Below, in pieces: positions 1 through 54,086 of a stretch of 64,000 bases of DNA; within the stretch, counting starts at the first letter, position 1, and each line of letters starts with the position of its first letter. The stretch covers positions 46,054-110,053 of IMG/VR virus record IMGVR_UViG_3300037262_000003; one strand, given 5' to 3'. The DNA comes from a virus. The notes below the pieces were generated by a model. That model saw nothing but the letters and a program-made list of their open reading frames with translations. It was not told the origin of the DNA and did no database searches. The position numbers and the translations under genes were made by a program.

Positions 1-2040
1 AGCGTGGAGCGACACCGATGGTGTTCCAGTGGATGCGAAAGCCAGCGCGGTAGCGACGTACGTCGCACCAGGGATGGCCGGTACATTCTCGGGGAAGGCA
101 TATCCGTTTACCGCAGTCGATACCAGCGACATAGAGTGCGTGCCATGGTATGCAAAGGAGGCAGACTGTGTGACCGTGGCATTGTTGCCCTGCCAAGGGG
201 TGATGCCCGTCTCGAAGTCGTAGTTCTGGTTGAGTACAACCTGCTGTCCCGGTGGCGTGGCTCCTGTGCTCTGACGCAGGGCGATGAAGTTGGTGTTCCC
301 GAATGACACAACCTGGTTGGTCTGGTAAGTCGTGGTGCTATTCCAGGGCTGAATCCCAGACGGCACTGGCACACCGTGCTCGATTACTAGCTGAGGGTCA
401 GGATACAACGCGGTAGCGGTAACACCTGCGGTTGACCTAGCAACAGACCTTAGCAGGGCGTTGGTTATAGTGCTGCCAGTGTTGTTGTTGACGCGGAACG
501 TGTTGCCGTAGCCATTAGGCCCGGTGACCGGTGTGGTTCCTGACTCTGCCCATGCCTGAGGAGTCGGGAAACCGACTCCCATTGCAGAAGCGTAGGCTGC
601 ACCGGATGCGTTAGTGAACTCCCACGTGCCCGAATTCGATGCCAGACCGGAGATGCTGATAGGAACGTTGTACTCGGCACCGTTCTTATCGCCGCCGTAG
701 ACGGCGGTCCAGTAAGTCGTCGCGCTCAGAGAACCCGAAGGCTGCTCGTTCTCATTAGCCAGAATGCAGACGTAAAGGTACGGCCCGTTGACACTCTGGG
801 ACCAGTTGGCTGTAGTCGTCGGGAGGACCTGCGTCGTGTTGGCTACCGTGCAGGTGTAGAACAGGTCGTTGTACATCACGACAGATCCTACGTTATAAGT
901 ACTTACAACACTCCATGACTGCGCTACAGGGAAGGTCACCAGATTGCCTGCGACATAAGACATGTTGGCAGACCAGGGAGCGGTCCTAGGATCATCGGGT
1001 TCGCTCTGGTCATCATCGAGCATGAAGTTGCGAGTCGTCTGAATGTCAGCCTGGTAGCCCGTCAGCAGTGTGATGTGCTCTGCGATGCCCGCAAGTGTGC
1101 CGCGCTCCTGCATGACACGGCCCCAGAACAGGGCAGCCTTACGTGTGGTGTAAGCCGGAAGCTCTGGGTTATACGGCAGGCCGATCTCAGCGCAAAGATT
1201 CTCAAGATCCCCGAGGCTCATGGTCATGGGGTTGTTGAGGGAGTTGAACTTCTGATCGTACTGCGACTTAACAAGGTCAAGCCCCATGCCCACTACTGCC
1301 AGGAACTGAGGCAGGGCTTGGTTGTCAGGCTGTTCAGCCCTGTTGACCCACTGCCATTCGGGCGCACTTGAGTAGGAGATAGTCACACTGCCGTTAGCGG
1401 GAAGCGTGAAGAACGACTGCATACCAAGCGGAATGTTGTTAACCAGGACATTGCAGGCGAAAGATAGCCATACGTCAACGTCGTAGCTGTAAGGGTTTGA
1501 GACATTTCCGCCAGACGATGGCATAGTGGGCGCGGGTACGGGAATGTCTGTGACAACCGTGTCTATGGTCTGGCTCTGGAAGAACGCAGGCAGATCCTGC
1601 ATGAGCTTGATGTCATAACCGTAGTAGTAAGGCATGAGACCGGCGGTGAAGCCACCGCGAAGCCATACCCCGGCGGACAGTACGTAGATCCCGTAGTACT
1701 GGACCGTTCCAGGGCTGGGAGAGGTGTCAACGTACGAGTAAGGGTACGACGGAGGCGCACCTGTGACATCTAGGACAATGGTTCCGTCATTCTCGTCAAC
1801 CGGGAATCCCCAGGTGTTGGAGATCAGACGGAACTCAGTCACAGTTGCGTTAGTGCCCGGCCCGAGAGGACCCCAGGTCACAAGAATGTTGCCGTAGTCC
1901 TGAACGGTAGCAGCCATACCCGGAAAGATATAGGCCGTGTTGACTACCGGGATGGTGATCTGTGAGCCAGGGTAGTTCCCGGTGGGCGGAGTCGGCCCGT
2001 AAGTAGACAGACCGTAGTCGTCATAGCCATAAGTCGCCAC
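1..2040 (-). CDS. Baseplate wedge / tail protein I-like with carbohydrate-binding repeats (partial, runs off window)
   Basis: GTG at 2040 after GGGGGA. Read by hand as MATYGYDDYGLSTYG...; contains RKAALFWGRVMQERGTLAGIAEHITLLTGY and W-x4-Y CBM-like repeats. Absent from the ORF track because it has no stop in the window. Confidence 0.75.
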   Translation of the reverse strand, partial: MATYGYDDYGLSTYGPTPPTGNYPGSQITIPVVNTAYIFPGMAATVQDYGNILVTWGPLGPGTNATVTEFRLISNTWGFPVDENDGTIVLDVTGAPPSYPYSYVDTSPSPGTVQYYGIYVLSAGVWLRGGFTAGLMPYYYGYDIKLMQDLPAFFQSQTIDTVVTDIPVPAPTMPSSGGNVSNPYSYDVDVWLSFACNVLVNNIPLGMQSFFTLPANGSVTISYSSAPEWQWVNRAEQPDNQALPQFLAVVGMGLDLVKSQYDQKFNSLNNPMTMSLGDLENLCAEIGLPYNPELPAYTTRKAALFWGRVMQERGTLAGIAEHITLLTGYQADIQTTRNFMLDDDQSEPDDPRTAPWSANMSYVAGNLVTFPVAQSWSVVSTYNVGSVVMYNDLFYTCTVANTTQVLPTTTANWSQSVNGPYLYVCILANENEQPSGSLSATTYWTAVYGGDKNGAEYNVPISISGLASNSGTWEFTNASGAAYASAMGVGFPTPQAWAESGTTPVTGPNGYGNTFRVNNNTGSTITNALLRSVARSTAGVTATALYPDPQLVIEHGVPVPSGIQPWNSTTTYQTNQVVSFGNTNFIALRQSTGATPPGQQVVLNQNYDFETGITPWQGNNATVTQSASFAYHGTHSMSLVSTAVNGYAFPENVPAIPGATYVATALAFASTGTPSVSLHA

Positions 2041-19017: not shown

Positions 19018-20109
19018 CTACTCACTAGGATACATGTAGTTCCAGCGATCAAATGCTAGCTGACGCATGTTGCCCTGGTAAGGAGCGCCTGCCACACACG
19101 CACTCGTGAGCGTTGACACCAGACTCGCCTCAGCATTGCAGGCAACCGTGATTGACGCCGTTACTCGCCCCGCATTAGGGTTAAGCGCTATGCCTACGGC
19201 GATGAGCGCAGGAATGACGTGCATCGTCGCGCCGACGTGTTGTCCGTGGCTACGCCCGGTGAAGAACGTAGGAGTCTGAGTGCTAAGAGCGCTTCTAAGA
19301 TGACCGCGCTTCCGATTAGCCGTAAACGTCGGGGACTGCGCGCTAGTAGCAGACCTTACGCGTCCTCGGATATGTACCGCCAGGAACGTAGGAATCTGGG
19401 TACTCGTAGCAGAGCGATAGTGCCCGCGAGTCCTTCCCGCAGAGAATGTCGGGCTCTGGTTGGAGGTAGCAGAGCGCTTTCGTCCGTGGATTCTGGTGGC
19501 AATGAAGTTCGGCGTTACACTCATTACCGCGCTGCGAACAATGTTCCCACCGGCTACGAGAGCCGTAGCCAGGAACGTAGGACTCACCGAAAGAGTGGCG
19601 TGTCTTCCGTGACCGTGAATCCTGGTGGACACGAATGAGGGAGTAATGCTCGACAGGGCAGACCTCACACGCCCGCGTGTACGTCCAGCATTGAACGTTG
19701 GCGTGAGCGTCAATGTTGCCTGACGTGGATGACCATGTAGCTTCGTGGTAACAAACGTAGGGTTTGGCGTCAATGTTGCGTGACGCCCATGTCCGTGAAT
19801 ACGTGTGGCCAGGAACGTCGGAGTGATAGCCGCGAGAGCTGACCTGACACGGCCTCTCGTGCGCCCGGCATTGAAAGTAGGAGTCGGAGTGAGAGATGCA
19901 CTGCGTGGGTGACCATGATGCTTTGTAGCGACAAACGTAGGACTCTGGGTGCTCAGCGCTGAACGGACACGACCTCTGATTCTGGTCACGTTGAAAGTCG
20001 GGGTTACCGACAGGGATGCTGAAGGCGTATGAGAACCGCTAGCCCCAACGTTACCGGGATTGGCCGAACCGGGCGACATGCTGCCCGGTGTCGCACCAAA
20101 GGATGTCAT
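19018..20109 (-). CDS. Basic 20-aa tandem-repeat protein (putative fibre/decoration)
   Basis: About 13-14 repeats of A-x5-PTF-x3-R-x-(H/R)G(H/R)-x-RS. Confidence 0.7.
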   Translation of the reverse strand: MTSFGATPGSMSPGSANPGNVGASGSHTPSASLSVTPTFNVTRIRGRVRSALSTQSPTFVATKHHGHPRSASLTPTPTFNAGRTRGRVRSALAAITPTFLATRIHGHGRHATLTPNPTFVTTKLHGHPRQATLTLTPTFNAGRTRGRVRSALSSITPSFVSTRIHGHGRHATLSVSPTFLATALVAGGNIVRSAVMSVTPNFIATRIHGRKRSATSNQSPTFSAGRTRGHYRSATSTQIPTFLAVHIRGRVRSATSAQSPTFTANRKRGHLRSALSTQTPTFFTGRSHGQHVGATMHVIPALIAVGIALNPNAGRVTASITVACNAEASLVSTLTSACVAGAPYQGNMRQLAFDRWNYMYPSE

Positions 20110-20114: not shown

Positions 20115-20240
20115 TTACGCTATCTTAGACACTTCTAGGACTGCGCCTTCTTCAATCTTTATCTCATCACCAGAAGTGGTGCTCTGGACGGTCAACTGAA
20201 GTGTACCGGGTGCCGCCCAGTCGATCCTGACGCCGCCCAT
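20115..20240 (-). pseudogene. Probable relic C-terminus of the ancestral tail-fibre gene
   Basis: GTLQLTVQSTTSGDEIKIEEGAVLEVSKIA; native GC content resumes here. Confidence 0.45.
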
Positions 20241-23200
20241 TAGTTGACCCGCTTCCAGCAGCCGCCATTGATCGTTACCGACACGCCCGCAGCCGAGGGG
20301 GTCATGCCCACCATCATCTGCTCCGCGCCCGTGGTGACCACGGTGGTGAGCTGCTGGCCCATCGTGGTCAGGAAGTAGTTCATGTACAGCGACGCCGTGA
20401 CGCTCGCCTCGGTCGTGCTCAGGAACTGGACGATCGCCGAGTAGCGCATCGCCGCGCCCGTCACCGCCGCGCCCGCGTTCGGGTTCGCCGCCCCGGAGCT
20501 GACGAGGCTCGTCCCGGCGAGGCCGCCGTAGAAGACCTGCCAGGTGAGCGTCTGCGTGTCGACCGTGGTGGTCACGGTCCCCCACAGGTCCAGCTCCCAC
20601 GTCTGCCCGGCCGCGATGCTGCCGCCCGCGATCGTCGGCCCCGGGAACACGTCCACCGCCACCGTGCCGCCCGTGTAGGGGCCGCCGGGCAGCGAGGGGA
20701 TGTAGACGCTCCCGGGGTGAACGTGGCCCGCGTCGGCCGCCTTGCCGGTGGCACCTGCCGCCTGCGTGCCGAGGGGCTGGATGTCCGCCGCGGTCCCGTC
20801 CAGCTCCACCGCGCCCTGCGCGCTGGTCGTCGCCGCCGGCAGGTCGCCCGAGGCGATGGTGCCCCAGCCCGGCGCGGCGGAGGCGCTGCCCGTGCCCGTC
20901 TGGGTCAGGAACTTCTTCGTGGCGGCCGTGTTCCCGGCCAGCCGCGCCGCCGTGCCCGCCCCCGACTCGTACTCCAGGTCCCCGGTCGTCGTCATCGGCG
21001 ACAGGGCGTTGTACGCGGCGGCGGCCGTGATCGCGCCGGTCCCCCCGTTGGCGATGGCGAGCGCGTTGTTCTTCGCGAAGTCGGACGGCCCCGCGCTCTG
21101 CACGTACCAGGTGGTGCCGATGTAGACGACGGCGAAGGTGTACCCGGCCGGGATGGCGATGTTCCCGCTCGTCCCGAAGTTGCTCAGGGTCGCGCCGCTG
21201 CCGGGGGCCAGCGTGACGGAAACCGAGGCGGCGTTGGTGACCGTGTTGATCGAGCTGCCCGGCGGCGACGCGGGCAGCGTCAGCGTCTGCCCCGTGGTCG
21301 ACCCGGTGAAGACCGTCTCCTCGCCGGGCAGCAGCGTCGCCGTGGCGGTCCGCGCGGTCGCGTTGTTCAGGTCGCTCACCAGGGTCGCCTCAGCGCTGGT
21401 GATCGCGACGCCCTGGACCTTCCCAACGGTCGTCGCGCCCTGCGTGCCGGTCACGTCCCCGGCGAGGCTGCCGGTGAAGCTGCCCGCCGACCCGGTGATG
21501 TTCTCCGCGTTGGGCCCGTACCACAGCGACGTGTTCGTGTCCCAGAAGAACTGCCGGGACGAAAGCGCGGGGATCACGTCTGCTGTTCCGTCTGCGACGT
21601 TGCTTGTTCCTGCCGCTGCGAAGGTGAGTGCGTTCGCCGACTGGTTGACGACCGTCACCATCTGCCCGCTTGTCCCTGCTGTTGCGAGGATCAGCCCCGT
21701 GTACGCAGCCGCTGCTGTCACGGGCACGAACGACACCGAGGTCGGGATCGTCTGCCCGTTGGCTGTGAGCGCGGTAGGTCCGGCGTAGTTCCCGATCGCG
21801 AGCCCGTACGGCGTCTGTACCTGGGTGGGGAAGATGTTGGTCACGCTGGCGAGGACGGAGTCGCCGAGCACCTGCCCGTAGTACCCGAAGTTGCTGGTCT
21901 TGTTGCTGGCGGTGAACGGGTAGGCCCCGGCGGCGAAGGACAGGAGCCCGCCGCAGGCGAAGCTGTAGTTCCCGGTCGCCCCGAAGTAGATCGTGTACGG
22001 GGCCAGGAAGGTAGCGTCGTCCAGCTCGACGCCGATATTGAAGGTGCTGTCACTGATGAAGCTGTAGCCGGGGTCGGGCCCGGCGAGGGCGGTGTTGTTG
22101 CCGGTGATCCTCAACACGGCGTACTGAGTCGTAGAGGTGCTGAAATTACCGAAGATGCCGAGCTGGACGGCGTTCTGGGCCAGAGCGCCGTTCTGGAAGA
22201 CGACGCCGTCACCCCCGTGGCCGTTGGCGTTGGAGACCGTGAAGGAATCCATGACGAGGCCGGAGCCGCCCTGCCAGATCTCAAACCCGGCCTGGCAGTC
22301 GATCAAATACCAGGCGGAGTTGCACCAGCCCTGGGTGATCATGTACTGGATGAGGTAGTACATGTCCACGGTCGCGGTGGTGACCTGGCTGGTGAATTGG
22401 AAGCTCGCCGTGCCTTCGGTGGCGTTAGCCCACGAGCTCTGCCAGTACACGTCGAACGTGTTCGCGCCGATCGTCACATTGGACGCGTAGAGCGTGCCCG
22501 GCGGGGTCACGCCGGTCGAGTTGGCCATCCAGACCATGACCTCAAGGCCGTTGGTGGCGTTGTTCGTCGGGTCCGGTGCCGTGTTGATCCAATGGTCATG
22601 GACGCAGTCCCAGATGTCGGAGCCGCCCGCGCCGAGCGTGACCGTATTCGATACGACGACCTGGCCCGGTGTGATGCTAGAGCAGACCAGCGGGAACGGA
22701 TTGAGCGGGCTCAGCGACCCGTACTGGTTGCCGACGTAAACAGACGGGTAGGCGGCCGGGGAACCTGGGTGGGTGTTGGCGAGGGAGGAGGCGGCGACCG
22801 AGAACGTGGTGGGCAAGCCGATCGTGTAATCGACGGTGAATGCCGCTGACGAGTCGTAACGGTTGCTCTGGATGACATAAGGCCCGTCATTGACCTGCTG
22901 TAGTGCGGTCAGCGTGCCGCTGCCGCTGCCGTACTGGCCGGAGCCGGTCCCGTTCTGGTTGATGAAGATATTGAGATTCATCCGGTCGTAAGATCCGGTC
23001 GCATTACCCGAGGTGTTCGCCGTGTTGTCGAAGACGACATGCTGCGTGCAGTTCTGGGCGAAGATCTCGCCCTCCATCTGCTCGCACCACGAATACTGGT
23101 TGTCGAACCAGATGCCCTTGCTCGTGGTGCCTGCGAAGAAGTTCTGGACGCCGACATCGAATTTTAGCTTGAAGATGTCGCCGACATGGACGCCGCTGGA

Positions 23201-23866
23201 ATTCCCGGTCGCATGCGTCCCGTCGACCGTCAGGCCGAGGAAGCCGCCGCCGTTGACCGTCTTGCTCGACCACAGCGTCGAATCGTAAATACGGAATACA
23301 TCACCCGTGCCGTACCACTCGATGTTAGAAGACCACTTGCCGTCTCCTAGGAAGTACACTGCGGTTCCCGCTACATTCTGCGTGACCGTCGTGGACACCT
23401 TGTATGTACCGGCAGGTATGTAGACGACACCACCTCCCTTGGCCACTACGGCGGCACTCGCGGCCTGGAATGCTGACGTGGAGTCGCTTACTCCTGTCTT
23501 GTCAGCTCCTAGCTGAGTGACGTTGACGATCACCGCCTGCAAGGTCTGAATAGAAGCCCTTGTGAGTACCTGCTTGACGGTGAAAGGCGTTGTATGAGCT
23601 ACCGGGGTAGTTCCGTCTGCTCCTCGCGTCACTGTCGCCGTGTAAGGCCCGGTGCCAGTGACATTCGTAAAGAGCACCTTCTCAGTCTCAACAGACGCGA
23701 GAGAATCAGCGGCATAGCACTGGGTCGCGGGGGTCGAGGAACTAGAGATCGTCGGCAGAGTAGACGCTGATAGCGTCCACGTCTCTACCGTTCCGGCAGC
23801 GGGCGCGGTAGTGCCACCGCTGGATACCGTCGCCGTCGCGTCGTTCGCGAAAACCTCTATTGCCAT
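20240..23866 (-). CDS. Tailspike/fibre: pectin-lyase-like beta-helix with inserted GH12 endoglucanase domain
   Basis: NVTQLGADKTGVSDSTSAFQ...GGGVVYIPAGTY; GH12 motifs YVIQSNRY, YPSVY, LEVMVW, WYL..QAGFEIW. Confidence 0.85.
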   Translation of the reverse strand: MAIEVFANDATATVSSGGTTAPAAGTVETWTLSASTLPTISSSSTPATQCYAADSLASVETEKVLFTNVTGTGPYTATVTRGADGTTPVAHTTPFTVKQVLTRASIQTLQAVIVNVTQLGADKTGVSDSTSAFQAASAAVVAKGGGVVYIPAGTYKVSTTVTQNVAGTAVYFLGDGKWSSNIEWYGTGDVFRIYDSTLWSSKTVNGGGFLGLTVDGTHATGNSSGVHVGDIFKLKFDVGVQNFFAGTTSKGIWFDNQYSWCEQMEGEIFAQNCTQHVVFDNTANTSGNATGSYDRMNLNIFINQNGTGSGQYGSGSGTLTALQQVNDGPYVIQSNRYDSSAAFTVDYTIGLPTTFSVAASSLANTHPGSPAAYPSVYVGNQYGSLSPLNPFPLVCSSITPGQVVVSNTVTLGAGGSDIWDCVHDHWINTAPDPTNNATNGLEVMVWMANSTGVTPPGTLYASNVTIGANTFDVYWQSSWANATEGTASFQFTSQVTTATVDMYYLIQYMITQGWCNSAWYLIDCQAGFEIWQGGSGLVMDSFTVSNANGHGGDGVVFQNGALAQNAVQLGIFGNFSTSTTQYAVLRITGNNTALAGPDPGYSFISDSTFNIGVELDDATFLAPYTIYFGATGNYSFACGGLLSFAAGAYPFTASNKTSNFGYYGQVLGDSVLASVTNIFPTQVQTPYGLAIGNYAGPTALTANGQTIPTSVSFVPVTAAAAYTGLILATAGTSGQMVTVVNQSANALTFAAAGTSNVADGTADVIPALSSRQFFWDTNTSLWYGPNAENITGSAGSFTGSLAGDVTGTQGATTVGKVQGVAITSAEATLVSDLNNATARTATATLLPGEETVFTGSTTGQTLTLPASPPGSSINTVTNAASVSVTLAPGSGATLSNFGTSGNIAIPAGYTFAVVYIGTTWYVQSAGPSDFAKNNALAIANGGTGAITAAAAYNALSPMTTTGDLEYESGAGTAARLAGNTAATKKFLTQTGTGSASAAPGWGTIASGDLPAATTSAQGAVELDGTAADIQPLGTQAAGATGKAADAGHVHPGSVYIPSLPGGPYTGGTVAVDVFPGPTIAGGSIAAGQTWELDLWGTVTTTVDTQTLTWQVFYGGLAGTSLVSSGAANPNAGAAVTGAAMRYSAIVQFLSTTEASVTASLYMNYFLTTMGQQLTTVVTTGAEQMMVGMTPSAAGVSVTINGGCWKRVN

Positions 23867-23875: not shown

Positions 23876-24247
23876 CTAAGAAGCTGTTGGAAGAGTGATT
23901 GTGATAGGAGTTATTGACAGCGTGTCAGTCGTCGCCATTGTTGCCGATGAAGACAGTGTGATCGAGAACTCAAAGGTTCCAGATGTTGACGCAGACCAGA
24001 AGCTAACGTCAGTCACGACCTCGTTGTTGGTACCTGCCCAAGACGGCCATGCCGGTGTGGTAGTGGCGCTGATAGAACCAGCGGAAGCGCCAGTTGCCCA
24101 TGCAACAGCCTCACGCGTGGTTGTGCTAGAAACGTTGGAGGTACCAGCAGTGCCCGGATCTCCGGTGTGGAGCTGCGCAAACAACGCTGAGGTTGTCCAG
24201 TTGTTCAACGCTGTGTCGGCGTTGAGTACAGAAAGTCCGTCAGCCAT
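23876..24247 (-). CDS. Small tail-fibre-associated virion protein
   Basis: AQLHTGDPGTAGTSN...REAVAW. Confidence 0.65.
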   Translation of the reverse strand: MADGLSVLNADTALNNWTTSALFAQLHTGDPGTAGTSNVSSTTTREAVAWATGASAGSISATTTPAWPSWAGTNNEVVTDVSFWSASTSGTFEFSITLSSSATMATTDTLSITPITITLPTAS

Positions 24248-24255: not shown

Positions 24256-24798
24256 CTAGGAGATGGTGTTGAAGGTGACCTGGAGGTTGAACTGGCTTGT
24301 GCCCGGATTACCCGTAGCCGTTCGCCTGATCCAGACAGGAAGAACCTGTCCTGGTCCTATATTACCAGCCTCTAGTCCGCCCGATACTGTGGCAGAAGGG
24401 CTGGAGTAACTGGAGATACCAGCGGGTGCGACATACGGGGAAGAGATTTGGAGAGCCTGCTGTGAGCCCGAGTTGTAATTCGATACGCCGGTAGGGTCAA
24501 GTGCGTAGGCCCAGGTAATACATGAGCTAGTCACAGATGATGTGGGAATCCACACTGTCGGGGCGATCATCGTGTCAGTGTCGTCACTGTTGTAGACGAA
24601 GACGCACTGATAGTCGATCTGCTGGGCTGCGTTCTGCGGGCCAGTAAGATCAGGGAATAGATTGTTCAGGACAGTGGAAAGGTTGACCTGCGTAGTCGAG
24701 CAGTACATTCCATTGGAGTTGTACACAGAGCCCGGAGTTGAATATCCACTGTCAGCGTTCGGTGCTGACAGAAGATACTGAACCTCGTCAATGTTCAT
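24256..24798 (-). CDS. Virion protein, unknown
   Basis: LNNLFPDLTG...DYQCVFVYN...VWIRR. Confidence 0.55.
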   Translation of the reverse strand: MNIDEVQYLLSAPNADSGYSTPGSVYNSNGMYCSTTQVNLSTVLNNLFPDLTGPQNAAQQIDYQCVFVYNSDDTDTMIAPTVWIPTSSVTSSCITWAYALDPTGVSNYNSGSQQALQISSPYVAPAGISSYSSPSATVSGGLEAGNIGPGQVLPVWIRRTATGNPGTSQFNLQVTFNTIS

Positions 24799-25382
24799 TA
24801 GCTCACTCCGATTTCAAAGGTCCCAGGAGCGACCTGAATGCTCTGAGTGCTGAGAACCTGCTGAGCCACGGGAACCTGCCATACGTACAGCAGAAGCCCG
24901 TTCAGCACGGTGCTGGCGATGGGAGTGTAGGAGCTTGAGTCAGCGAATGGCACGCCGATCATGGCAGCCCACCCGATAGGAGCGGCCTGGTTAGCCGTGT
25001 AAGGCCCGAAGGTCACGGTGTTAGTGTTCGTGAATGACGTGGGCTCGGATGCATTAGCAGCACCGAATGTGATGGGCTGACGTAGATAACCCGTCGTGGT
25101 GTCCTCAATGGCGGCGATGTCAGAGATGTTGACTACCAGGCCACCACCAGGACCGGCCACGGTGGGGTCACTAGTCAGAAGACATAGGTAACGTTCATAG
25201 GGGCCAGTAACCCAGGTCGAGGTGTGCGGATCGTATACGTTCAGGACTGATCCCGAGGTGTTGATCCACTCCTGTCCCACAATCCAAGTTCCAGGTGCGG
25301 ACGCACCGATAAAAGGAGTGGCGATGCCGCTGATCTTGTTAGCGACGTACTCCGCCCCGTACTGGGTTAGCTGGCCAGCCAT
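24798..25382 (-). CDS. Tail-fibre-associated virion protein
   Basis: YLCLLTSDPT...GYLRQPITF...NTNTVTFGP. Confidence 0.6.
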   Translation of the reverse strand: MAGQLTQYGAEYVANKISGIATPFIGASAPGTWIVGQEWINTSGSVLNVYDPHTSTWVTGPYERYLCLLTSDPTVAGPGGGLVVNISDIAAIEDTTTGYLRQPITFGAANASEPTSFTNTNTVTFGPYTANQAAPIGWAAMIGVPFADSSSYTPIASTVLNGLLLYVWQVPVAQQVLSTQSIQVAPGTFEIGVS

Positions 25383-27625: not shown

Positions 27626-27654
27626 TTGACAGGACACCCCAAGCTGTGTAGGCT
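27626..27654 (+). promoter_or_regulatory. Sigma70-type promoter
   Basis: TTGACA-N17-TAGGCT. Confidence 0.75.
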
Positions 27655-27668
27655 TGGGGTGTCTTTTT
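27633..27668 (+). terminator. Intrinsic terminator overlapping the promoter
   Basis: GACACCCCAAGC/GCTTGGGGTGTC stem followed by a T run. Confidence 0.75.
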
Positions 27669-27689
27669 ATCCAACAAACAGGAGGATAT

Positions 27690-28664
27690 ATGAAGAAGCT
27701 ACTAGCCGCTGTTGGTGTTATCGCCATGTCAGCGGCTCTCGGGCTTAGCGCTGCACCGGCTTTTGCGGACACGTCCAGTAGCATTCCCAGCGCAGGGTGG
27801 ATCAGCACGGAGACTGTGCCCGACTACATTCTTGCCAACGATGGACTGAATGTCACATACACGCCCGGAACGGTGGAGTACTCTGCCACCTGGAATCCCA
27901 GGTTCTCTGCCCAGTGGCAGGATGCGTATCTCGTAACGGGATACTCTCACGGTGCCAACTCGACTGCCCAGGCAGGCTCATACGGCAAGTATGTGTACAA
28001 GATGCCCCTTCGAGTTGACGCAGAATCCCAGTTCACAGGCAGTATGACATACAGCACCAGTTCTGACTTCGACGGCCGGCCGGGCTGGGACATCTGGCTG
28101 TCACCAAGCGGAAGTCAGAATGTTGACACGACTGCCGCGACACTGGAAGCCAACCCCCGTACTGTTGAGGTTCTTCTCCAGCCCGGCACCCTCTCTTATG
28201 AGTCCAACCCAGGTTACGACAGGATCTTTTACGGAGTCGGGTCTCTGTCTGACGTGAATATCGGTGAGTACGTCATCAAGGCCCTTGACTACCTCGGGCT
28301 GGACCCGTCAGAGTATTACTGGGCGGCGATCGACGGCGGCGCTGAGATGACACGGGGATCGTTCACTATGGACAGCTACTCGCTATCAGTCGTAACTGAT
28401 CAGACGGTGGGTTCCAAGACTGTCAAGATCCCCGACTGGGGTGCGACGAAGCCCGCGAGTCACAAGGCTGTCAAGACTTACAAGGCTGTGGTGAAGGCTG
28501 TCAAGAAGGTCACCATCAAGGCAACTCCCGTGGCTGCCACAGTCACTGCCGCACAGCCTTCCTCAGGCATCTCAGGGACAGTCCTAGGACTGTTCGGATT
28601 GGGTGCTCTGCTGGCTGCTGCGACTGGCTTCCTGCTCTGGAGGCGTTCGCGTCGTCGGGGTTGA
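27690..28664 (+). CDS. Secreted, C-terminally membrane-anchored GH12-like protein
   Basis: Signal peptide ...PAFA|D; MPLRVD, GWDIWL, VEVLL, YWAAIDGGAEM...MDSYS; TM helix followed by RRSRRRG. Confidence 0.7.
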   Translation: MKKLLAAVGVIAMSAALGLSAAPAFADTSSSIPSAGWISTETVPDYILANDGLNVTYTPGTVEYSATWNPRFSAQWQDAYLVTGYSHGANSTAQAGSYGKYVYKMPLRVDAESQFTGSMTYSTSSDFDGRPGWDIWLSPSGSQNVDTTAATLEANPRTVEVLLQPGTLSYESNPGYDRIFYGVGSLSDVNIGEYVIKALDYLGLDPSEYYWAAIDGGAEMTRGSFTMDSYSLSVVTDQTVGSKTVKIPDWGATKPASHKAVKTYKAVVKAVKKVTIKATPVAATVTAAQPSSGISGTVLGLFGLGALLAAATGFLLWRRSRRRG

Positions 28665-49467: not shown

Positions 49468-49541
49468 CGTTGCCTCCTAGAGATGAGTATGGCCCGGCAG
49501 AGGATACCTCACTACACGTGAGCAGAGCATACCGGGCCAGG

Positions 49542-49612
49542 CTTCGGAACAGGGACTCGAACCCCAATGAGCAGACTCAGATTCTGCCATCCTGCCATTA
49601 GATGATTCCGAA
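49542..49612 (-). tRNA. tRNA-Gln(CTG)
   Basis: Hand-folded cloverleaf; loop ATCTGAG. Confidence 0.85.
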
Positions 49613-49613
49613 G

Positions 49614-49684
49614 TGCCCCCATGAGGATTTGAACCCCAATACGACGGGTAAAAACCGCCTGTCCTACCGTTGAACGATACGGGC
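49614..49684 (-). tRNA. tRNA-Lys(TTT)
   Basis: Loop TTTTTAC; A73. Confidence 0.8.
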
Positions 49685-49689
49685 ATATG

Positions 49690-49761
49690 TTTCGGGACAA
49701 AAGACTCGGACTTCAATCCTCGGCTTCAAAAGCCGGTGTCCTGCCATTAGACGATCCCGAA
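49690..49761 (-). tRNA. tRNA-Gln(TTG)
   Basis: Loop TTTTGAA; weak T arm. Confidence 0.7.
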
Positions 49762-49786
49762 ATATAAGTCTAATATATCAGACCGG

Positions 49787-49858
49787 TACCCCCCCAGGGA
49801 ATCGAACCCTGATTCACTGGGTAAGAGCCAGCTACTCTAGCCGTTGAGTTAGAGAGGT
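49787..49858 (-). tRNA. tRNA-Lys(CTT)
   Basis: Loop CTCTTAC. Confidence 0.85.
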
Positions 49859-49927
49859 ATATAGTGCCGGAATTTTGGGTTCCCTGGCGCTAGAGGTAAC
49901 TAGCGCCCCGACACATGGGGGATCTCG

Positions 49928-49999
49928 CACTCTCGACCGGACTCGAACCGGTGTCTTCCGCTTAGGGGGCGGTAGATCTATCCACTGACCTACGAGAGT
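49928..49999 (-). tRNA. tRNA-Arg(CCT)
   Basis: Loop CCCCTAA (C33). Confidence 0.8.
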
Positions 50000-50005
50000 G
50001 ATTCC

Positions 50006-50034
50006 ATGTTACTACGAAAATCTAGACCTGTCAA
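50006..50034 (-). promoter_or_regulatory. Promoter for a tRNA block
   Basis: TTGACA-N17-TAACAT. Confidence 0.7.
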
Positions 50035-50795
50035 CCCAACGTCCCGAATGTGATGGTGTCTCCACCCCAATCGAAGTTCTGGATCTGCACGTCCTGTCCC
50101 TGTGTTGGAGCCACGATCATGTCCTGGCCTCCCAGGAAGATACCTACGTGGTACACGTACGAAGCAGGATCGCTGTCATCGTGGAAGAACACCAAGTCGC
50201 CCGGACGGGCTTCGCTCTGGGGAATCATCTTGAAGAAGTTGAACTGATCGTCAGCTATTCTCGGCACTGTTGACCCTGCCTGCGCGTAAGCCCACTGTAC
50301 TAGGCCCGAACAGTCAAAGTCAACCCCTGGATCTTCGCCTCCGTAGACGTAGGGTACTCCTATCTGGCTCTCCGCGTACTGGACCACCTTCTGCCCGAGT
50401 GACCCTGAGGTCACTGTGTGAGTGGGCGTTGAACTGGGCGTCGGAGTAGGAGAGGGAGTGGATCGAAGTGTGAAAGTAGGGACAGGGGGCGCTATGACGG
50501 CAGCAGAGGTAGTGTCCGTAGTGACCTTGGCCACTGTTGCTACCTTCTTCTTGACTGCGATCTCAGTCACGATACGCCGAGGGTACATCTGCCACTGCGA
50601 AGGAATGTGGACAGGGGGTACTGCCTTGATCGGGGCAGTATTATGGATCGGCTCTGGATTAAGCTGCATGAGATCTGCCGTAGTGGCAGAATGGGGCATA
50701 GACGATCCTGACAGAAGAACGGCTGTCATTGCCGTTGCGGGCAATGCGACAGCCGTGAACTTCTTGATGATGTTAGGCTTACGGTGCTTTCCCAT
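50031..50795 (-). CDS. Secreted NlpC/P60 peptidoglycan endopeptidase
   Basis: GVPYVYGG...FDCSGLV...PGDLVFF...HVGIF; N-terminal signal/TM. Confidence 0.9.
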   Translation of the reverse strand: MGKHRKPNIIKKFTAVALPATAMTAVLLSGSSMPHSATTADLMQLNPEPIHNTAPIKAVPPVHIPSQWQMYPRRIVTEIAVKKKVATVAKVTTDTTSAAVIAPPVPTFTLRSTPSPTPTPSSTPTHTVTSGSLGQKVVQYAESQIGVPYVYGGEDPGVDFDCSGLVQWAYAQAGSTVPRIADDQFNFFKMIPQSEARPGDLVFFHDDSDPASYVYHVGIFLGGQDMIVAPTQGQDVQIQNFDWGGDTITFGTLG

Positions 50796-50842
50796 ACTTC
50801 AAGGTAACATAACGGAGACGTTACCACAACCCTCCAGGTCAT

Positions 50843-50946
50843 TGGGGCAGCAGCCCGGACATGAACCGGGACCTATCTCTTCACAAGTCGTGCTCTATCC
50901 CGACAGCCCCGACCGGTACCGGGCTGACTGTTTACACCACTGCTGC
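50843..50946 (-). ncRNA. Aberrant tRNA-His-like RNA
   Basis: Perfect acceptor and T stems, C73-CCA, TTGTGAA loop; hairpin inserted in the D-loop; unpaired anticodon stem. Confidence 0.6.
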
Positions 50947-50949
50947 AAG

Positions 50950-51021
50950 AGCCAAGTCAGAGAATCGGACTCTGGACCTCATCCGTACCAAGGATGTGTT
51001 CTACCACTGAACTAACAAGGC
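50950..51021 (-). tRNA. tRNA-Thr(GGT)
   Basis: Loop TTGGTAC. Confidence 0.8.
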
Positions 51022-51114
51022 ATTGCCCGGACCTGCTCCATCCTCAGCCTACTTCTGCGTGGCAGGCTAATCTATTTGGATGGTCGGTATCCAGGGTTGG
51101 GGTATACACCAACG

Positions 51115-51185
51115 AGCCCCACCGAGGGATCGAACCCCGATTTACTCCGTACGAAGGAGTCGTTCTGCCATTTAACTAGCAGGGC
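51115..51185 (-). tRNA. tRNA-Thr(CGT)
   Basis: Loop TTCGTAC. Confidence 0.85.
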
Positions 51186-51307
51186 ATTTTAGTAGTCGCG
51201 CCCGTTTCTCCTCGGGCTCTCCTGTGACATCCGTTCATCCTGGCCTAGGAGTCGGTACAACCCACAGTCGGCATCTTGTCCTGCGCGCCAGACTTCTGCC
51301 GCGACCG

Positions 51308-51376
51308 TAGAGCGCCAGAGAGTCGAACTCTGTCATTGGGCTTAGAAGGCCCGAGCGGGCATCCGTCCCGCGCTCC
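51308..51376 (-). tRNA. tRNA-Arg(TCT)
   Basis: Loop CTTCTAA; short D arm. Confidence 0.75.
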
Positions 51377-51392
51377 ATATTTAGTTTACTTG

Positions 51393-51464
51393 AGCCTCTT
51401 GCAGGAATCGAACCCGCGTCACTTTCTTACAAGGGAAGCATACTCGCCATTGTACTAAAGAGGC
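51393..51464 (-). tRNA. tRNA-Thr(TGT)
   Basis: Loop CTTGTAA. Confidence 0.85.
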
Positions 51465-51559
51465 ATAAAAGCCCGTCTCTTCCTCTGGTCCCTACTCCGC
51501 AAATTCTGCTGTGTTCCCCACAGTCATATCGGATCTAAGGAGGGCATCCAGTCCTTGCG

Positions 51560-51630
51560 TACCCAATGAAGGTAATGCTCCCTCGTCCTCGCCTTGTAAG
51601 GGCGTTGCTCTCCTTTTGAGCTAATCGGGC
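51560..51630 (-). tRNA. tRNA-Val(TAC)
   Basis: Loop CTTACAA; T-loop AGCATTA. Confidence 0.75.
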
Positions 51631-51681
51631 ATACGTGCCTTAACGTCGGCACCAGACGGGCGTAAGTGGAGTCGCCACCCG

Positions 51682-51756
51682 TACACCGTCAAGGAATTGA
51701 ACCTTGCTTAAACTAAGTTATCAGCTTAGCTCTCACAACCAGTGAGACTACAGTGC
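51682..51756 (-). tRNA. tRNA-Ile(GAT)
   Basis: Loop CTGATAA. Confidence 0.75.
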
Positions 51757-51757
51757 G

Positions 51758-51830
51758 TGGAGAAGGTCGGACTCGAACCGACAGCCGTCTGCTTGCAAAG
51801 CAGTTGCTCTACCATTGGAGCTACATCCCC
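51758..51830 (-). tRNA. tRNA-Ala(TGC)
   Basis: Loop TTTGCAA; G3:U70. Confidence 0.9.
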
Positions 51831-51987
51831 ATAATGAGCGGTCCACTTACTCCACCATAGCAGTGTAAAGATTGGGCGTCATAACCACTCAAGCGTGCTG
51901 GTGTGCTGGTGTGCTGCCAGTTACAGCACAGCAAGTTATTGCCCGCAGGCTCACTCACTGGCGGGGTTCGAACCCTCACCACCAACG

Positions 51988-52058
51988 TAGCCCACGCCGG
52001 TTACGATCCGGCCTCAAGAGATTGAAAGTCTCCCGTTCTGCCACTAAACTAGTGGGCC
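51988..52058 (-). tRNA. tRNA-Glu(TTC)
   Basis: Loop CTTTCAA. Confidence 0.8.
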
Positions 52059-52117
52059 AAGATACTTCGTTAGGTTCTTTAGTCTAGCATGTGGTGAAAG
52101 ACGAGTCAAACTACTTG

Positions 52118-52190
52118 CGCTCGCGACGGGATTCGAACCCGCCCTAGCACCTTGACAGGGTGCCGTGCTTACCGCTGACACTACGCGTGC
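52118..52190 (-). tRNA. tRNA-Asp(GTC)
   Basis: Loop CTGTCAA. Confidence 0.85.
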
Positions 52191-52272
52191 ATGATCCCAG
52201 TTTTTAACGTGGGTGAGGCCACGTGTGAGGATATCCTCACATCCATGTGGATGTGAGGATATTATCACAAGC

Positions 52273-52347
52273 CTATCGACGGTAGTAGCCTACGCCGCCG
52301 CCAAGTAGCAGGACAATGAGAACGACTACGATGATAATCAGTAGCAT
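52273..52347 (-). CDS. 24-aa single-TM micropeptide
   Basis: AAAGGAG RBS; MLLIIIVVVLIVLLLGGGVGYYRR. Confidence 0.65.
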   Translation of the reverse strand: MLLIIIVVVLIVLLLGGGVGYYRR

Positions 52348-52380
52348 GGTATCTCCTTTCGTCCTTATCACCGTACCACG

Positions 52381-52453
52381 TATCAGTAACGGGGATCGAA
52401 CCCGTAGCCTCCTGGTTGAGAGCCAGGTGATCTGCCAATTGATCTATACCGAC
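52381..52453 (-). tRNA. tRNA-Glu(CTC)
   Basis: Loop CTCTCAA. Confidence 0.85.
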
Positions 52454-52454
52454 G

Positions 52455-52526
52455 TGGTTCCCAGAGGGATCGAACCTCTGCGCTCCGGGCTTCAACCGGG
52501 TGCTCTACCAACTGAGCTAGAGAACC
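52455..52526 (-). tRNA. tRNA-Phe(GAA)
   Basis: Loop TTGAAGC. Confidence 0.85.
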
Positions 52527-52567
52527 ATAAGAATGGGCTTTTAACGTCATCACCCGAGGACGAGTTG

Positions 52568-52638
52568 AGTCCCACGCGGGGTTCGAACCCACGCTAGCAC
52601 CTTGGCAAGGTACTGTGCTACCACTACACCAGTAGGAC
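52568..52638 (-). tRNA. tRNA-Gly(GCC)
   Basis: Loop TTGCCAA. Confidence 0.85.
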
Positions 52639-52749
52639 ACCGTGCTCCCAGTTTAAGTCAGGAAGCCATGACTGTCAAGACCGTGCTGTTCTTGCTTTTT
52701 ACGGATGACAGAACAGCAAACACTTTCGTCCCACCAAGTGTGTTGGGAG

Positions 52750-52820
52750 AGCCTCATGCCGGTACTGCCCCGGCTCTGAATGCTTGGAAGGCACTCGTGC
52801 AACTTTCACACCCATAAGGC
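52750..52820 (-). tRNA. tRNA-Gly(TCC)
   Basis: Loop CTTCCAA; T-loop GGCAGTA. Confidence 0.75.
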
Positions 52821-52858
52821 ACCGTGGCGTTTTAAAGACTCGCCATGTCTGCTTTACG

Positions 52859-52932
52859 TAGCGGAAGCGAGATTCGAACTCGCGTCGTGCGGCTTATGAG
52901 GCCGGGCTGGGTCCTCTCCAGTCCATTCCGCT
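52859..52932 (-). tRNA. tRNA-Met(CAT)
   Basis: Loop CTCATAA. Confidence 0.8.
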
Positions 52933-52970
52933 ATGAATAAATCTATCACACTGTCGTAGTGTTTGTCAAG

Positions 52971-53042
52971 TCGGCTCGGTGGGGATCGAACCCACTTAAC
53001 TACCTTATAAGAGTAGCGCCTTAACCAGTAGACGACGAGCCA
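52971..53042 (-). tRNA. tRNA-Ile(TAT)
   Basis: Loop CTTATAA. Confidence 0.8.
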
Positions 53043-53043
53043 G

Positions 53044-53124
53044 AGGAAGGATGACGAGTCGAACGCCATGGTTACCCACGTTTCGCTTTCAAGGCGATCT
53101 CAGGCCCGGCCTGATTAACCTTCC
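53044..53124 (-). tRNA. tRNA-Ser(TGA)
   Basis: Loop CTTGAAA; long variable arm. Confidence 0.75.
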
Positions 53125-53125
53125 G

Positions 53126-53194
53126 AGCACAGTATGAGAATCGGACTCATCTTCGTAGGTTTGCAATCTACGCCCATCCCAGATGGAACCATGC
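53126..53194 (-). tRNA. tRNA-Cys(GCA)
   Basis: Loop TTGCAAA; U73. Confidence 0.75.
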
Positions 53195-53249
53195 AAGCCG
53201 GTCCAAGCTTCCGCTGTAGAGGAATTTCCTCAGACTGCCTGGACCCGAG

Positions 53250-53332
53250 CGGAGAGCTGAGGGCACGATCCCCAACGCCGAGACGCCGCGCTCGTTAGCA
53301 GCGAGGCCCGTTCCCTGAACGGTTAACTCTCC
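53250..53332 (-). tRNA. tRNA-Ser(GCT)
   Basis: Loop CTGCTAA; long variable arm; G73. Confidence 0.8.
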
Positions 53333-53347
53333 ATGTACAGTGTAGCT

Positions 53348-53428: not shown

Positions 53429-53459
53429 GAAACGAGAATAACACTGAGTTTCTAGAATG

Positions 53460-53630: not shown

Positions 53631-53642
53631 TATGACTCCTTG

Positions 53643-53865: not shown

Positions 53866-53873
53866 TTAACTCA

Positions 53874-54076: not shown

Positions 54077-54086
54077 ATGTCAAGCG

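What the first reader, a model, noticed from the sequence alone, without database searches (positions are those of the whole stretch)
22229..22905. Intact GH12 cellulase domain inserted into a loop of a tailspike beta-helix
The beta-helix sequence ...NIFINQNG breaks at a Gly/Ser linker and resumes at GDGVVFQNG. Between them is a full domain that aligns by eye to Streptomyces CelB-type GH12 (YVIQSNRY, YPSVY, DHW, LEVMVW, WYL..QAGFEIWQGG..L.MDSF). Both catalytic Glu residues are retained. To my knowledge GH12 is uncommon among phage depolymerases; this could be a dual-specificity spike.
Basis: partly seen in the sequence, partly recalled or inferred. Interest (0 to 1): 0.8.

Follow-up and report, generated by a model that had tools for sequence, protein, structure and literature searches.

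The report
Cellulase-type domain nested in phage tailspike
A soil phage related to Streptomyces phages carries a complete cellulase-type (GH12) enzyme domain spliced into a loop of its tailspike, an arrangement found in no other protein searched, which suggests the virus cuts a cellulose-like sugar coat on its host.

Summary
The 1208-aa gene at window 20240-23866 (minus strand) is a pectate-lyase-like beta-helix spike. Residues 321-546 form a complete GH12 domain: Pfam PF01670 E 1.4e-14, solved GH12 structures down to E 3.7e-24, AlphaFold pLDDT 93. Both catalytic Glu residues (E442, E529) are kept.

It is a true insertion. All 61 aligned homologues run straight from "...INQNG" to "DGVVFQNG" with 1-7 residues where this protein has 244. 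Solved beta-helix chains also superpose across the insert.

Among 1.84 billion representative proteins, only this gene has helix-GH12-helix. No GH12 was found in 50,697 GenBank phage records or among predicted viral structures (BFVD). Contigs from independent peat metagenome runs bridge both junctions, so it is not an assembly chimera.

The GH12 belongs to a small clade that lacks the four conserved cysteines of secreted GH12s. Members with recognisable context are phage tail proteins. The phage is a myovirus whose portal is 51-52% identical to those of Streptomyces phages BRock and GiJojo; GiJojo has an insert-less tailspike at the same position.

Enzyme activity, a cellulose-like hyphal-tip glycan as substrate, and dual specificity are inferred, not shown. 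This is a new variant of a known kind. Other first-stage notes on this same genome had flagged the stretch; nothing was found on other DNA.

The parts
20240..23866 (-). Whole spike gene, 1208 aa (P0001). The ATG at 23866 is the likely true start; the stop codon is at 20240-20242.
   Evidence: ORF list and translation. Homologues P0004, P0007 and P0009 align from residue 1-3, so the 1039-aa database gene call (P0003, which starts at residue 170) is too short.
23531..23866 (-). N-terminal domain, residues 1-112, presumed virion-anchor module.
   Evidence: Shared by 26 of the homologues classified. Its GC3 of 0.62 is typical of the genome. The anchor role is inferred from the usual modular layout of receptor-binding proteins.
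22949..23530 (-). Beta-helix, part before the insert (residues 113-306). It ends in ...NLNIFINQNG.
   Evidence: Pfam PF12708, residues 113-311, E 4.9e-7, 30.2 bits against a cut-off of 27. AlphaFold pLDDT is mostly above 95. Family-invariant residues H227, D230, D255, N256, E262, D280, S292 and R295 are kept.
22907..22948 (-). Gly/Ser-rich entry linker TGSGQYGSGSGTLT (residues 307-320).
   Evidence: Absent from 61 homologues. Model pLDDT is below 50 at residues 308-314. The closest GH12 relatives share 'GTL.ALQ' at the domain start.
22229..22906 (-). Complete GH12 domain (residues 321-546, P0002).
   Evidence: Pfam PF01670 E 1.4e-14. PDB phmmer hits down to E 3.7e-24, covering residues 19-232 of a 244-residue chain. 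Model of the segment alone: pLDDT 93.3, pTM 0.90. VIA-align Z 21-23 to GH12 chains, with 200-223 residues aligned.
22541..22543 (-). Codon of E442, the predicted catalytic nucleophile in the motif NGLEVMVW.
   Evidence: Invariant column E122 in alignment A2. It aligns with the E-I-M-I-W motif of 1oa4 and 7mkr. Position checked. The nucleophile assignment follows established GH12 knowledge and was not tested.
22280..22282 (-). Codon of E529, the predicted general acid/base in the motif QAGFEIWQGG.
   Evidence: Invariant column E209 in A2. It aligns with AGFE of 1oa4 and 7mkr. Position checked.
22211..22228 (-). Exit linker ANGHGG (residues 547-552).
   Evidence: Absent from the homologues. Model pLDDT is below 50 at residues 547-549.
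21518..22210 (-). Beta-helix, part after the insert (residues 553-783). It resumes at DGVVFQNG.
   Evidence: 121 of the classified homologues carry this part directly after the first part. pLDDT is around 90. Solved beta-helix chains align across the insert, model range 13..580. Invariant residues N574, E614 and D669 are kept.
20243..21517 (-). C-terminal region (residues 784-1208), rich in Ala, Thr and Gly, with no family assignment. Presumed distal or receptor-binding part.
   Evidence: No Pfam hit. Only short partial matches to three homologues. GC3 of 0.97-0.99 against 0.53-0.69 for the other genes measured in the window.
20118..20231 (-). Untranslated remnant of the family's native C-terminus, just after the stop codon and in another frame.
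   Evidence: tblastn: the last 32-38 residues of six homologues match here (P0149 76% identity, E 5e-11; P0064 66%, E 6e-9).

Best explanation
The gene encodes a virion spike of a 110-kb contractile-tailed phage from peat soil, distantly related to Streptomyces phages BRock and GiJojo. The spike has a pectate-lyase-like right-handed beta-helix of the kind that forms phage depolymerase tailspikes. One turn of that helix, between residues 306 and 553, has been opened. A whole GH12 beta-jelly-roll domain hangs there from two short flexible Gly-rich linkers.

Shown: the domain is complete, keeps the GH12 catalytic pair and the other invariant cleft residues, is a true insertion, and exists in nature in several samples.

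Inferred: it is an active retaining endo-beta-1,4-glucanase carried on the virion. It cleaves a beta-glucan on the host surface, most plausibly the cellulose-like glycan that filamentous actinomycetes deposit at growing hyphal tips through CslA/GlxA, so the phage can reach the wall. The helix itself keeps its own conserved acidic groove residues on the rungs either side of the insert, so the spike probably has two different polysaccharide-processing sites.

History, inferred from codon composition: the helix-plus-GH12 block (codons about 196-768) entered this genome as one piece, by recombination inside the helix from a relative with higher GC. The C-terminal 440 codons were swapped separately, leaving the old C-terminal end stranded after the stop codon.
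For: GH12 identity and integrity:
- Pfam, PDB sequence hits and structure models support a complete GH12.
- E442, E529, D424, W426 and M444 lie in invariant or nearly invariant columns of 25 GH12 sequences.

True insertion:
- 61 of 61 aligned homologues are contiguous at the site.
- 121 of 154 classified hits have both helix parts and no GH12.
- Solved beta-helix chains superpose across the insert: 7chu Z 26.1, Kp7 gp51 Z 25.5, AlgE4 Z 24.1, phi29 gp12 Z 22.4, Sf6 tailspike Z 22.

Uniqueness:
- Only the window's own gene call shows helix-GH12-helix among the best 150 hits from 1.84 billion representatives.

Not an artefact:
- Contigs of the independent runs X6, X7 and X18 bridge the junctions at 100% identity.

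Phage-adapted GH12 clade:
- A tree split with 100/99 support separates 10 sequences, including this one, from the GH12-CBM2 enzymes and the other GH12s sampled.
- All 10 lack the four Cys columns conserved in the other group, which fits folding in the cytoplasm.
- Members with recognisable context are phage tail proteins. P0005 matches phrog_5313 at E 1e-193 and matches proteins of Streptomyces siphophages. P0101 has tailspike and tail-fibre PHROG hits. The N-terminus of P0078 matches phage tail fibres.

Host and spike role:
- The portal is 51-52% identical to those of Streptomyces myophages.
- The phage has a tail sheath and baseplate.
- GiJojo gp76, annotated 'tailspike protein' (PF12708), sits in the syntenic slot.

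Substrate idea:
- Erwinia phage S6 needs cellulose for infection and carries GH5 and GH48 cellulases (PMC9544554).

Second site:
- The helix family's invariant residues H227, D230, E262, D280, S292, R295, N574 and E614 are all kept.

History:
- GC3 steps at codons 195 and 768, with none at the insert borders.
- A stranded C-terminal remnant lies just after the stop codon.
Against: - No enzyme activity, substrate or host is known; everything about function is inferred.
- The host is assigned only through 51-52% portal identity to Streptomyces phages and through high-GC3 imported segments.
- GH12 members also include xyloglucanases and beta-1,3-1,4-glucanases (PDB titles), so beta-1,4-glucan specificity is not settled.
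- The clade changes YDIW to HDHW/FDNW next to the catalytic centre, with unknown effect.
- The trimer was not modelled, and I had no access to model coordinates. So I cannot say which way the GH12 cleft faces or how close it lies to the helix groove.
- The gene lies between the capsid and neck genes, next to small Gp80-like fibre genes. The spike may therefore sit on a neck or side fibre rather than the baseplate.
Confidence: 0.6

Rival explanations
1. The GH12 domain is used as a carbohydrate-binding, lectin-like receptor-recognition module and does not cleave anything. The beta-helix is the only enzyme.
For: Receptor-binding proteins often recruit glycan-binding jelly-rolls. The clade has altered the YDIW motif to HDHW/FDNW beside the active centre. 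GH12 has no CBM here, unlike the GH12-CBM2 enzymes found as its nearest relatives outside the clade.
Against: Both catalytic Glu residues, the Asp of the D-x-W motif, and the Met and Trp of E-x-M-x-W are invariant across all 25 sequences, including the 10 in the phage-type clade, despite identity of only 29-67%. That is the pattern expected under selection for catalysis.
Confidence: 0.15
2. The GH12 acts on environmental plant polysaccharide (peat cellulose, xyloglucan or mixed-linkage glucan) rather than a host polymer. It would help virions move through, or hold onto, plant-derived matrix where cellulolytic actinomycete hosts live.
For: The sequence is found in peat, permafrost and soil metagenome runs. 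GH12 includes plant-wall xyloglucanases. The nearest GH12s outside the clade are GH12-CBM2 enzymes, named cellulases or cellobiosidases by their sources.
Against: The domain sits inside the spike next to the helix's conserved groove. It also recurs in other phage tail proteins. That placement is typical of enzymes acting on the host surface. In the one known precedent for phage cellulases, the target is host-made cellulose (PMC9544554).
Confidence: 0.12
3. The protein is not a baseplate tailspike. It is the distal unit of a bead-chain neck or side fibre built from the small Gp80-like proteins encoded just upstream. The enzymology is unchanged; only its place on the virion differs.
For: The gene lies between the major capsid gene and the neck and sheath genes. 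The 123-aa and 194-aa genes upstream hit PF23140 'GP4 fiber I gp80', and the 123-aa one also hits phrog_240 'head protein'. In myophage A-1(L), a neck fibre is a chain of small trimers capped by a larger distal trimer (PMC10966104). There is a PHROG hit to the phi29-type pre-neck appendage, and phi29 gp12 is a structural match at Z 22.4.
Against: The syntenic gene of the Streptomyces phage relative GiJojo is annotated as tailspike, although that annotation is itself untested. Gene order does not fix virion position.
Confidence: 0.25
4. The helix-GH12-helix arrangement is an assembly chimera or a sequencing artefact.
For: The genome is a metagenome-assembled virus record, and the architecture is unique.
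Against: The reading frame is open through both junctions. Contigs from runs of different studies (X6, X7, X18) cover the N-side junction, and X18 (barely also X6) covers the C-side junction, with no differing letters. GC3 is uniform across both junctions.
Confidence: 0.02

Closest known systems
Actinobacterial GH12 endo-beta-1,4-glucanases (Streptomyces lividans CelB2, PDB 1NLR; Streptomyces sp. 11AG8 Cel12A, 1OA4; Acidothermus GuxA GH12 domain, 7MKR)
   Same: Full-length sequence and fold match (E 1e-19 to 1e-24; Z 22-23). Same catalytic Glu pair and the same E-x-M-x-W and G-F-E motifs.
   Different: Only about 26-30% identity in the structure-based alignments to solved structures and 38-43% to the nearest GH12-CBM2 enzymes. 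No signal peptide and no CBM2. The four conserved Cys columns are lost. A 3-residue 'WAN' insertion is present and YDIW becomes HDHW. The domain is nested inside another domain rather than free-standing.
Phage beta-helix depolymerase spikes (Geobacillus virus E2 ORF18 7CHU, Klebsiella phage Kp7 gp51 7Y5S, phi29 gp12 3GQ8, Sf6 tailspike 2VBK) and PF12708
   Same: Right-handed pectate-lyase-like beta-helix (Z 22-26, about 270 residues aligned). Pfam PF12708 hit. N-terminal anchor followed by helix and then distal domains.
   Different: None of these carries a second complete glycoside-hydrolase domain inside the helix. Sequence identity is only 14-21%.
Streptomyces phage GiJojo gp76 'tailspike protein' (PP725410.1) and BRock-like myophages
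   Same: Same genome type (about 110-115 kb, many tRNA genes, contractile tail). Same slot between the capsid genes and the terminator/sheath genes. PF12708 helix present.
   Different: Barely alignable: 29% identity over 123 residues, E 5e-4 pairwise, and no tblastn hit at database scale. It has a K1-lyase_C end domain and no GH12.
Erwinia phage S6 cellulases gp095 (GH5) and gp094 (GH48), with bacterial cellulose as first receptor (Knecht et al. 2022, discussed in PMC9544554)
   Same: Phage-encoded beta-1,4-glucanases thought to sit on the particle and act on host-made cellulose. This is the functional model proposed here.
   Different: Different GH families. They are free-standing C-terminal catalytic domains, not nested ones. 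The phage is a podophage of a Gram-negative host. Activity is shown for gp095, whereas nothing is shown here.
Metagenomic phage tail proteins of the same GH12 clade (P0005: GH12+GH26+phrog_5313, 1702 aa; P0101: GH12 followed by a PF12708 helix, 815 aa; P0020)
   Same: GH12 is 39-67% identical, falls in the same tree clade, shows the same loss of cysteines, and in the closest members has the same 'GTL.ALQ ... FTVSNA' domain borders.
   Different: In these proteins the GH12 is strung in series with the other domains. P0101 has it before the helix, not inside it.

Membership tests
Glycoside hydrolase family 12 (Pfam PF01670) | Profile-HMM match above the curated cut-off | tested here: met
   Segment alone: E 1.4e-14, 55.2 bits against a cut-off of 27. 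The scan of the whole protein did not list it, probably a filter effect in a long, compositionally biased protein.
Glycoside hydrolase family 12 (Pfam PF01670) | Complete beta-jelly-roll fold of about 220 residues | tested here: met
   Model of the segment: pLDDT 93.3, pTM 0.90. In the 701-residue model, GH12 chains align over 200-223 of their 216-240 residues at Z 21-23 and rmsd 2.5-3.4. The top 50 Foldseek PDB hits are all GH12.
Glycoside hydrolase family 12 (Pfam PF01670) | Catalytic nucleophile Glu in the E-x-M-x-W motif | tested here: met
   E442 in NGLEVMVW. The column is invariant in 25 sequences and aligns with the same motif in 1oa4 and 7mkr.
Glycoside hydrolase family 12 (Pfam PF01670) | General acid/base Glu in the A-G-F-E motif | tested here: met
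   E529 in QAGFEIWQGG. The column is invariant.
Glycoside hydrolase family 12 (Pfam PF01670) | Hydrolysis of beta-1,4-linked glucan, xyloglucan or mixed-linkage glucan | not testable with these tools
   Needs an enzyme assay.
Phage beta-helix tailspike / depolymerase (PF12708-type) | Pectate-lyase-like profile match | tested here: met
   PF12708 at residues 113-311, E 4.9e-7, 30.2 bits against a cut-off of 27. PHROG tail spike phrog_2234, E 1.1e-8.
Phage beta-helix tailspike / depolymerase (PF12708-type) | One continuous right-handed beta-helix | tested here: met
   Solved beta-helix chains align with about 270 residues spanning model positions 13..580, on both sides of the insert. The homologues are contiguous at the site.
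Phage beta-helix tailspike / depolymerase (PF12708-type) | Homotrimer attached to the virion through an N-terminal module | not tested
   No multimer prediction was available and no virion data exist. Supported only by synteny with GiJojo gp76 and by the N-terminal module shared among homologues.
Phage beta-helix tailspike / depolymerase (PF12708-type) | Own catalytic acidic residues in the helix groove | tested here: inconclusive
   Family-invariant D230, E262, E614 and others are retained. Their role and the family's substrate are unknown.
Cellulose-dependent phage infection (Erwinia phage S6 type) | Host makes a surface beta-1,4-glucan that is needed for adsorption | not testable with these tools
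   The host is unknown. Streptomyces relatives make a CslA/GlxA glycan (PMC11920096).

The most novel reading that the evidence does not exclude
The spike is a two-enzyme machine in which a nested GH12 glucanase and the beta-helix's own groove act on two different layers of a filamentous actinomycete's envelope. The phage would use the CslA/GlxA cellulose-like glycan as its primary receptor, and so would be aimed at growing hyphal tips. This would be the first link between that glycan and phage infection, and the first case of a complete glycoside hydrolase nested in a tailspike helix.
Probability: 0.25. Interest if true: 0.8.

Novelty: new variant of a known kind. Interest (0 to 1): 0.62.

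Why it matters
Phage depolymerase spikes are the main determinants of which surface polysaccharide a phage can cross. They are also mined as enzymes and as host-range modules.

A complete second hydrolase nested in a helix turn shows that the beta-helix tolerates a 246-residue domain at a defined loop. That loop is a natural design point for bifunctional spikes.

GH12 has not been described in phages. The small cysteine-free GH12 clade found here looks like a version adapted to folding in the cytoplasm and travelling on tail proteins.

If the substrate is the cellulose-like tip glycan of Streptomyces and its relatives, this gives a direct, testable handle on two open questions: what that glycan does in phage defence or susceptibility, and how phages find the growing tips of filamentous bacteria.

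The finding also shows that routine annotation missed both domains. The database entry carries no Pfam domains and a truncated start.

Tried and rejected
The genomic context of P0004, P0005 and the other metagenomic homologues could not be read.
- **Searches in known phages and viral contigs.**
  - tblastn of the insert and of the whole protein against 50,697 phage records gave no match.
  - Megablast of 10 kb around the gene gave only a 57-bp hit to Gordonia phage Kudefre.
  - A pattern scan of IMG/VR with the insert found nothing.
  - With the GH12 alignment, the scan found two distant small GH12 proteins (L002 at 35% identity, L003 at 26%). One sits next to a GT2 glycosyltransferase and may be host DNA.
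  - Scans with P0004 found nothing, and scans with P0005 found only relatives of its C-terminal domain without GH12.
- **The single metagenome-contig scan** with the clade alignment returned 80 loci, all at 43% identity or less (the type outside the clade). It gave no context for the phage-type clade.
- **BFVD fold search** with the GH12 model gave no hit at E <= 1e-3.
- **Literature.** No paper joins GH12 with tailspike or depolymerase.
- **The idea that the GH12 was captured recently from the host into this gene is rejected.** GC3 does not change at the insert borders, and the nearest relatives are phage tail proteins, not host-type enzymes.
- **The idea that the second ORF (27654-28664) is a paired GH12 is not supported by sequence.** Pfam, PHROG, PDB and BLAST were all negative. 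There is only a marginal structural lead.
- **The first 701-residue model** had low confidence (pLDDT about 50) for the first half of the GH12, because few GH12 rows were in that alignment. This was resolved by the second model.
- **I could not read model coordinates.** The orientation of the GH12 cleft and its distance from the helix groove were therefore not determined.
Full report
**What is there.**
- The window is part of a 110,053-bp IMG/VR virus record rated complete.
- The finding lies in a 1208-aa ORF on the minus strand, 20240..23866.
- In frame, window:22229-22906:- gives residues 321-546.

**Is it GH12?**
- Scanned alone, the segment matches Pfam PF01670 at E 1.4e-14, 55.2 bits against a cut-off of 27.
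- It also matches solved GH12 enzymes over nearly their whole length:
  - Acidothermus GuxA GH12 domain 7mkr, E 3.7e-24
  - Streptomyces sp. 11AG8 Cel12A 1oa4, E 1.9e-23
  - S. lividans CelB2 1nlr, E 2.6e-19
- A scan of the whole protein listed only PF12708 and missed GH12. The database copy of the gene (P0003) carries no Pfam domain at all and starts at residue 170, so routine annotation had missed this.
- An AlphaFold model of the segment with 25 GH12 rows has pLDDT 93.3 and pTM 0.90.
- In the model of residues 100-800, GH12 chains align to positions 217..450 at Z 21-23, with 200-223 residues aligned. The 50 best Foldseek PDB hits are all GH12.
- In a 25-sequence alignment, E122 and E209 of the segment (E442 and E529 of the protein) are invariant. 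W106, M124, G207, F208 and W211 are also invariant, and D104 is nearly invariant. The domain is therefore complete and keeps the catalytic apparatus.

**Is it an insertion in the helix?**
- A phmmer search of residues 100-800 against 1.84 billion representatives found 2493 relatives.
- I classified all 154 homologues fetched by then, most of them the best 150 of that search, using local phmmer:
  - 121 have the helix parts before and after the insert directly joined.
  - 10 have GH12 only.
  - One (P0101) has GH12 in front of the helix.
  - Only the window's own gene call has helix-GH12-helix.
- In an alignment with 61 helix homologues, each has 1-7 residues (mostly 2) where this protein has 244. 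The consensus reads straight through '...L.I.....G.GDGVVFQNG'.
- In the model (pLDDT 82.5; helix parts mostly above 90; linkers below 50), solved beta-helix chains align with about 270 residues over model positions 13..580, on both sides of the insert. These include Geobacillus virus E2 ORF18 at Z 26.1, Klebsiella phage Kp7 gp51 at 25.5, AlgE4 at 24.1, phi29 gp12 at 22.4 and Sf6 tailspike at 22.

**Is it real DNA?**
- The stretch 22000-23200 occurs in peat, permafrost and soil metagenome runs from several studies.
- Contigs of runs X6, X7 and X18, none flagged as a possible source, cover the N-side junction.
- X18 (barely also X6) covers the C-side junction. There are no differing letters.

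**How rare is it?**
- tblastn gave no match for the insert or the whole protein in 50,697 GenBank phage records.
- The fold search against BFVD found nothing.
- No paper joins GH12 with tailspike or depolymerase.
- IMG/VR holds only two distant small GH12 proteins.

**Where does the GH12 come from?**
- Its nearest relatives are a handful of metagenomic multidomain proteins (P0005 67%, P0020 55%, P0033 53%, P0023 50%, P0036 50%, P0078 45%). GH12-CBM2 enzymes reach only 38-43%.
- A maximum-likelihood tree splits 10 sequences, including this one, from the other 31 with 100/99 support.
- All 10 lack the four cysteine columns that are 87-100% conserved in the other group. This is what one would expect for a domain that must fold in the cytoplasm on a virion protein (inference).
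- Members with recognisable context are phage tail proteins:
  - P0005 matches phrog_5313 at E 1e-193 and matches proteins of Streptomyces siphophages such as phiSASD1 gp38.
  - P0101 has tail-spike and tail-fibre PHROG hits.
  - The N-terminus of P0078 matches phage tail fibres.
- The GH12 therefore looks like a cassette that moves among phage tail proteins, not a fresh capture from a host.

**The phage and the slot.**
- The phage has a tail sheath, a baseplate wedge, a tape-measure protein, a portal, a terminase, a major capsid protein and 24 tRNA genes.
- Its portal is 51-52% identical to those of the Streptomyces myophages BRock, GiJojo, pSt2308, Alone3 and LuckySocke.
- In GiJojo the same slot, between the capsid genes and the terminator/sheath, holds gp76. 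That gene is annotated as tailspike and has PF12708 and a K1-lyase_C end, but no GH12.
- Upstream of the spike lie small genes with the PF23140 'GP4 fiber I gp80' domain. In other phages such proteins build bead-chain fibres, including a neck fibre in myophage A-1(L) (PMC13730344, PMC10966104). The place of the spike on the virion stays open.

**Mosaic history.**
- GC3 is 0.62 in codons 1-195 (the other genes measured in the window run 0.53-0.69), 0.87 in codons 196-768 and 0.98 in codons 769-1208.
- There is no step at the borders of the insert. The helix-plus-GH12 block therefore probably arrived together, by recombination inside the helix (inference).
- Immediately after the stop codon, in another frame (20118-20231), lies a remnant that matches the last 32-38 residues of six family members (P0149 76% identity, E 5e-11). 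This is a stranded native C-terminus left by a swap of the distal part.

**How it most likely works.**
- Shown: a complete GH12 with an intact catalytic pair, nested in a depolymerase-type helix that keeps its own invariant polar residues on the rungs flanking the insert (H227, D230, E262, D280, S292, R295 | N574, E614, D669).
- Inferred: the virion carries an active endo-beta-glucanase that cuts a host surface beta-glucan. [quoted passage not shown]
- A precedent exists. Erwinia phage S6 needs host cellulose and encodes GH5 and GH48 cellulases (PMC9544554).
- A second activity of the helix is plausible but untested.
- Rivals are a binding-only role, action on plant material in peat, and a neck-fibre rather than baseplate location. 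An assembly artefact is excluded.

**Verdict.** The observation and the core interpretation hold. The component families are known: GH12, beta-helix spikes and phage cellulases. What is new is the nesting of a full hydrolase inside the helix, GH12 on a phage, and the cysteine-free tail-protein clade. I rate it a new variant of a known kind, of moderate to high interest.

Noticed in passing
window 20118-23866 (GC3 steps near 23281 and 21562; remnant at 20118-20231): The spike gene is a three-part mosaic by third-position GC: 0.62, 0.87 and 0.98. A 32-38 aa remnant of the family's native C-terminus lies just after the stop codon in another frame. This is evidence of a recent swap of the distal module from a very high-GC donor.
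   Followed up: yes
Pfam, PHROG, PDB sequence search and BLAST against the spike's GH12 all found nothing. The ESM Atlas model (pLDDT 0.41) has a GH12 cluster as its top structural neighbour at TM 0.45/0.50, which is only a marginal lead.
   Followed up: partly
window 23876-24247 and 24798-25382 (-), also 24256-24798: The small genes directly upstream of the spike carry the PF23140 'GP4 fiber I gp80' domain, which builds bead-chain fibres in other phages. The spike may be the distal unit of such a fibre.
   Followed up: partly
window 19018-20109 (-): The 363-aa ORF just downstream of the spike is made of many tandem copies of a motif like 'TPTF.A.R.RGR.RSA.' and is rich in Arg, Thr and Ser. 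It has no Pfam or PHROG hit.
   Followed up: no
window 20240-23866; database entry P0003: The public gene call starts at residue 170 (1039 aa) and carries no precomputed Pfam domain. A whole-protein Pfam scan misses GH12, which scores 55 bits when the segment is scanned alone.
   Followed up: yes
window 54971-57757 (-): The ribonucleotide reductase large subunit matches its PHROG family in two stretches, with an HNH endonuclease match at residues about 450-556 between them. This looks like an intein or a homing-endonuclease insertion.
   Followed up: no
window 49540-54263 (-): A cluster of 24 tRNA genes, similar in scale to the tRNA sets of Streptomyces phages GiJojo and BRock.
   Followed up: no
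protein P0101 (metagenomic, 815 aa): A different solution to the same combination: GH12 (170-383) placed in front of a PF12708 helix (396-540), with a tail-fibre C-terminal domain. It lies in the same 10-sequence tree group as the window's GH12 but outside its tight 7-member core, and at 39% identity it is the most divergent member aligned.
   Followed up: partly
L003:7278-10030: An IMG/VR contig has a 367-aa GH12 protein overlapping a 706-aa GT2 (PF13632) glycosyltransferase gene. This could be a host-type glucan synthesis/hydrolysis pair carried on a prophage or a misbinned host region.
   Followed up: no
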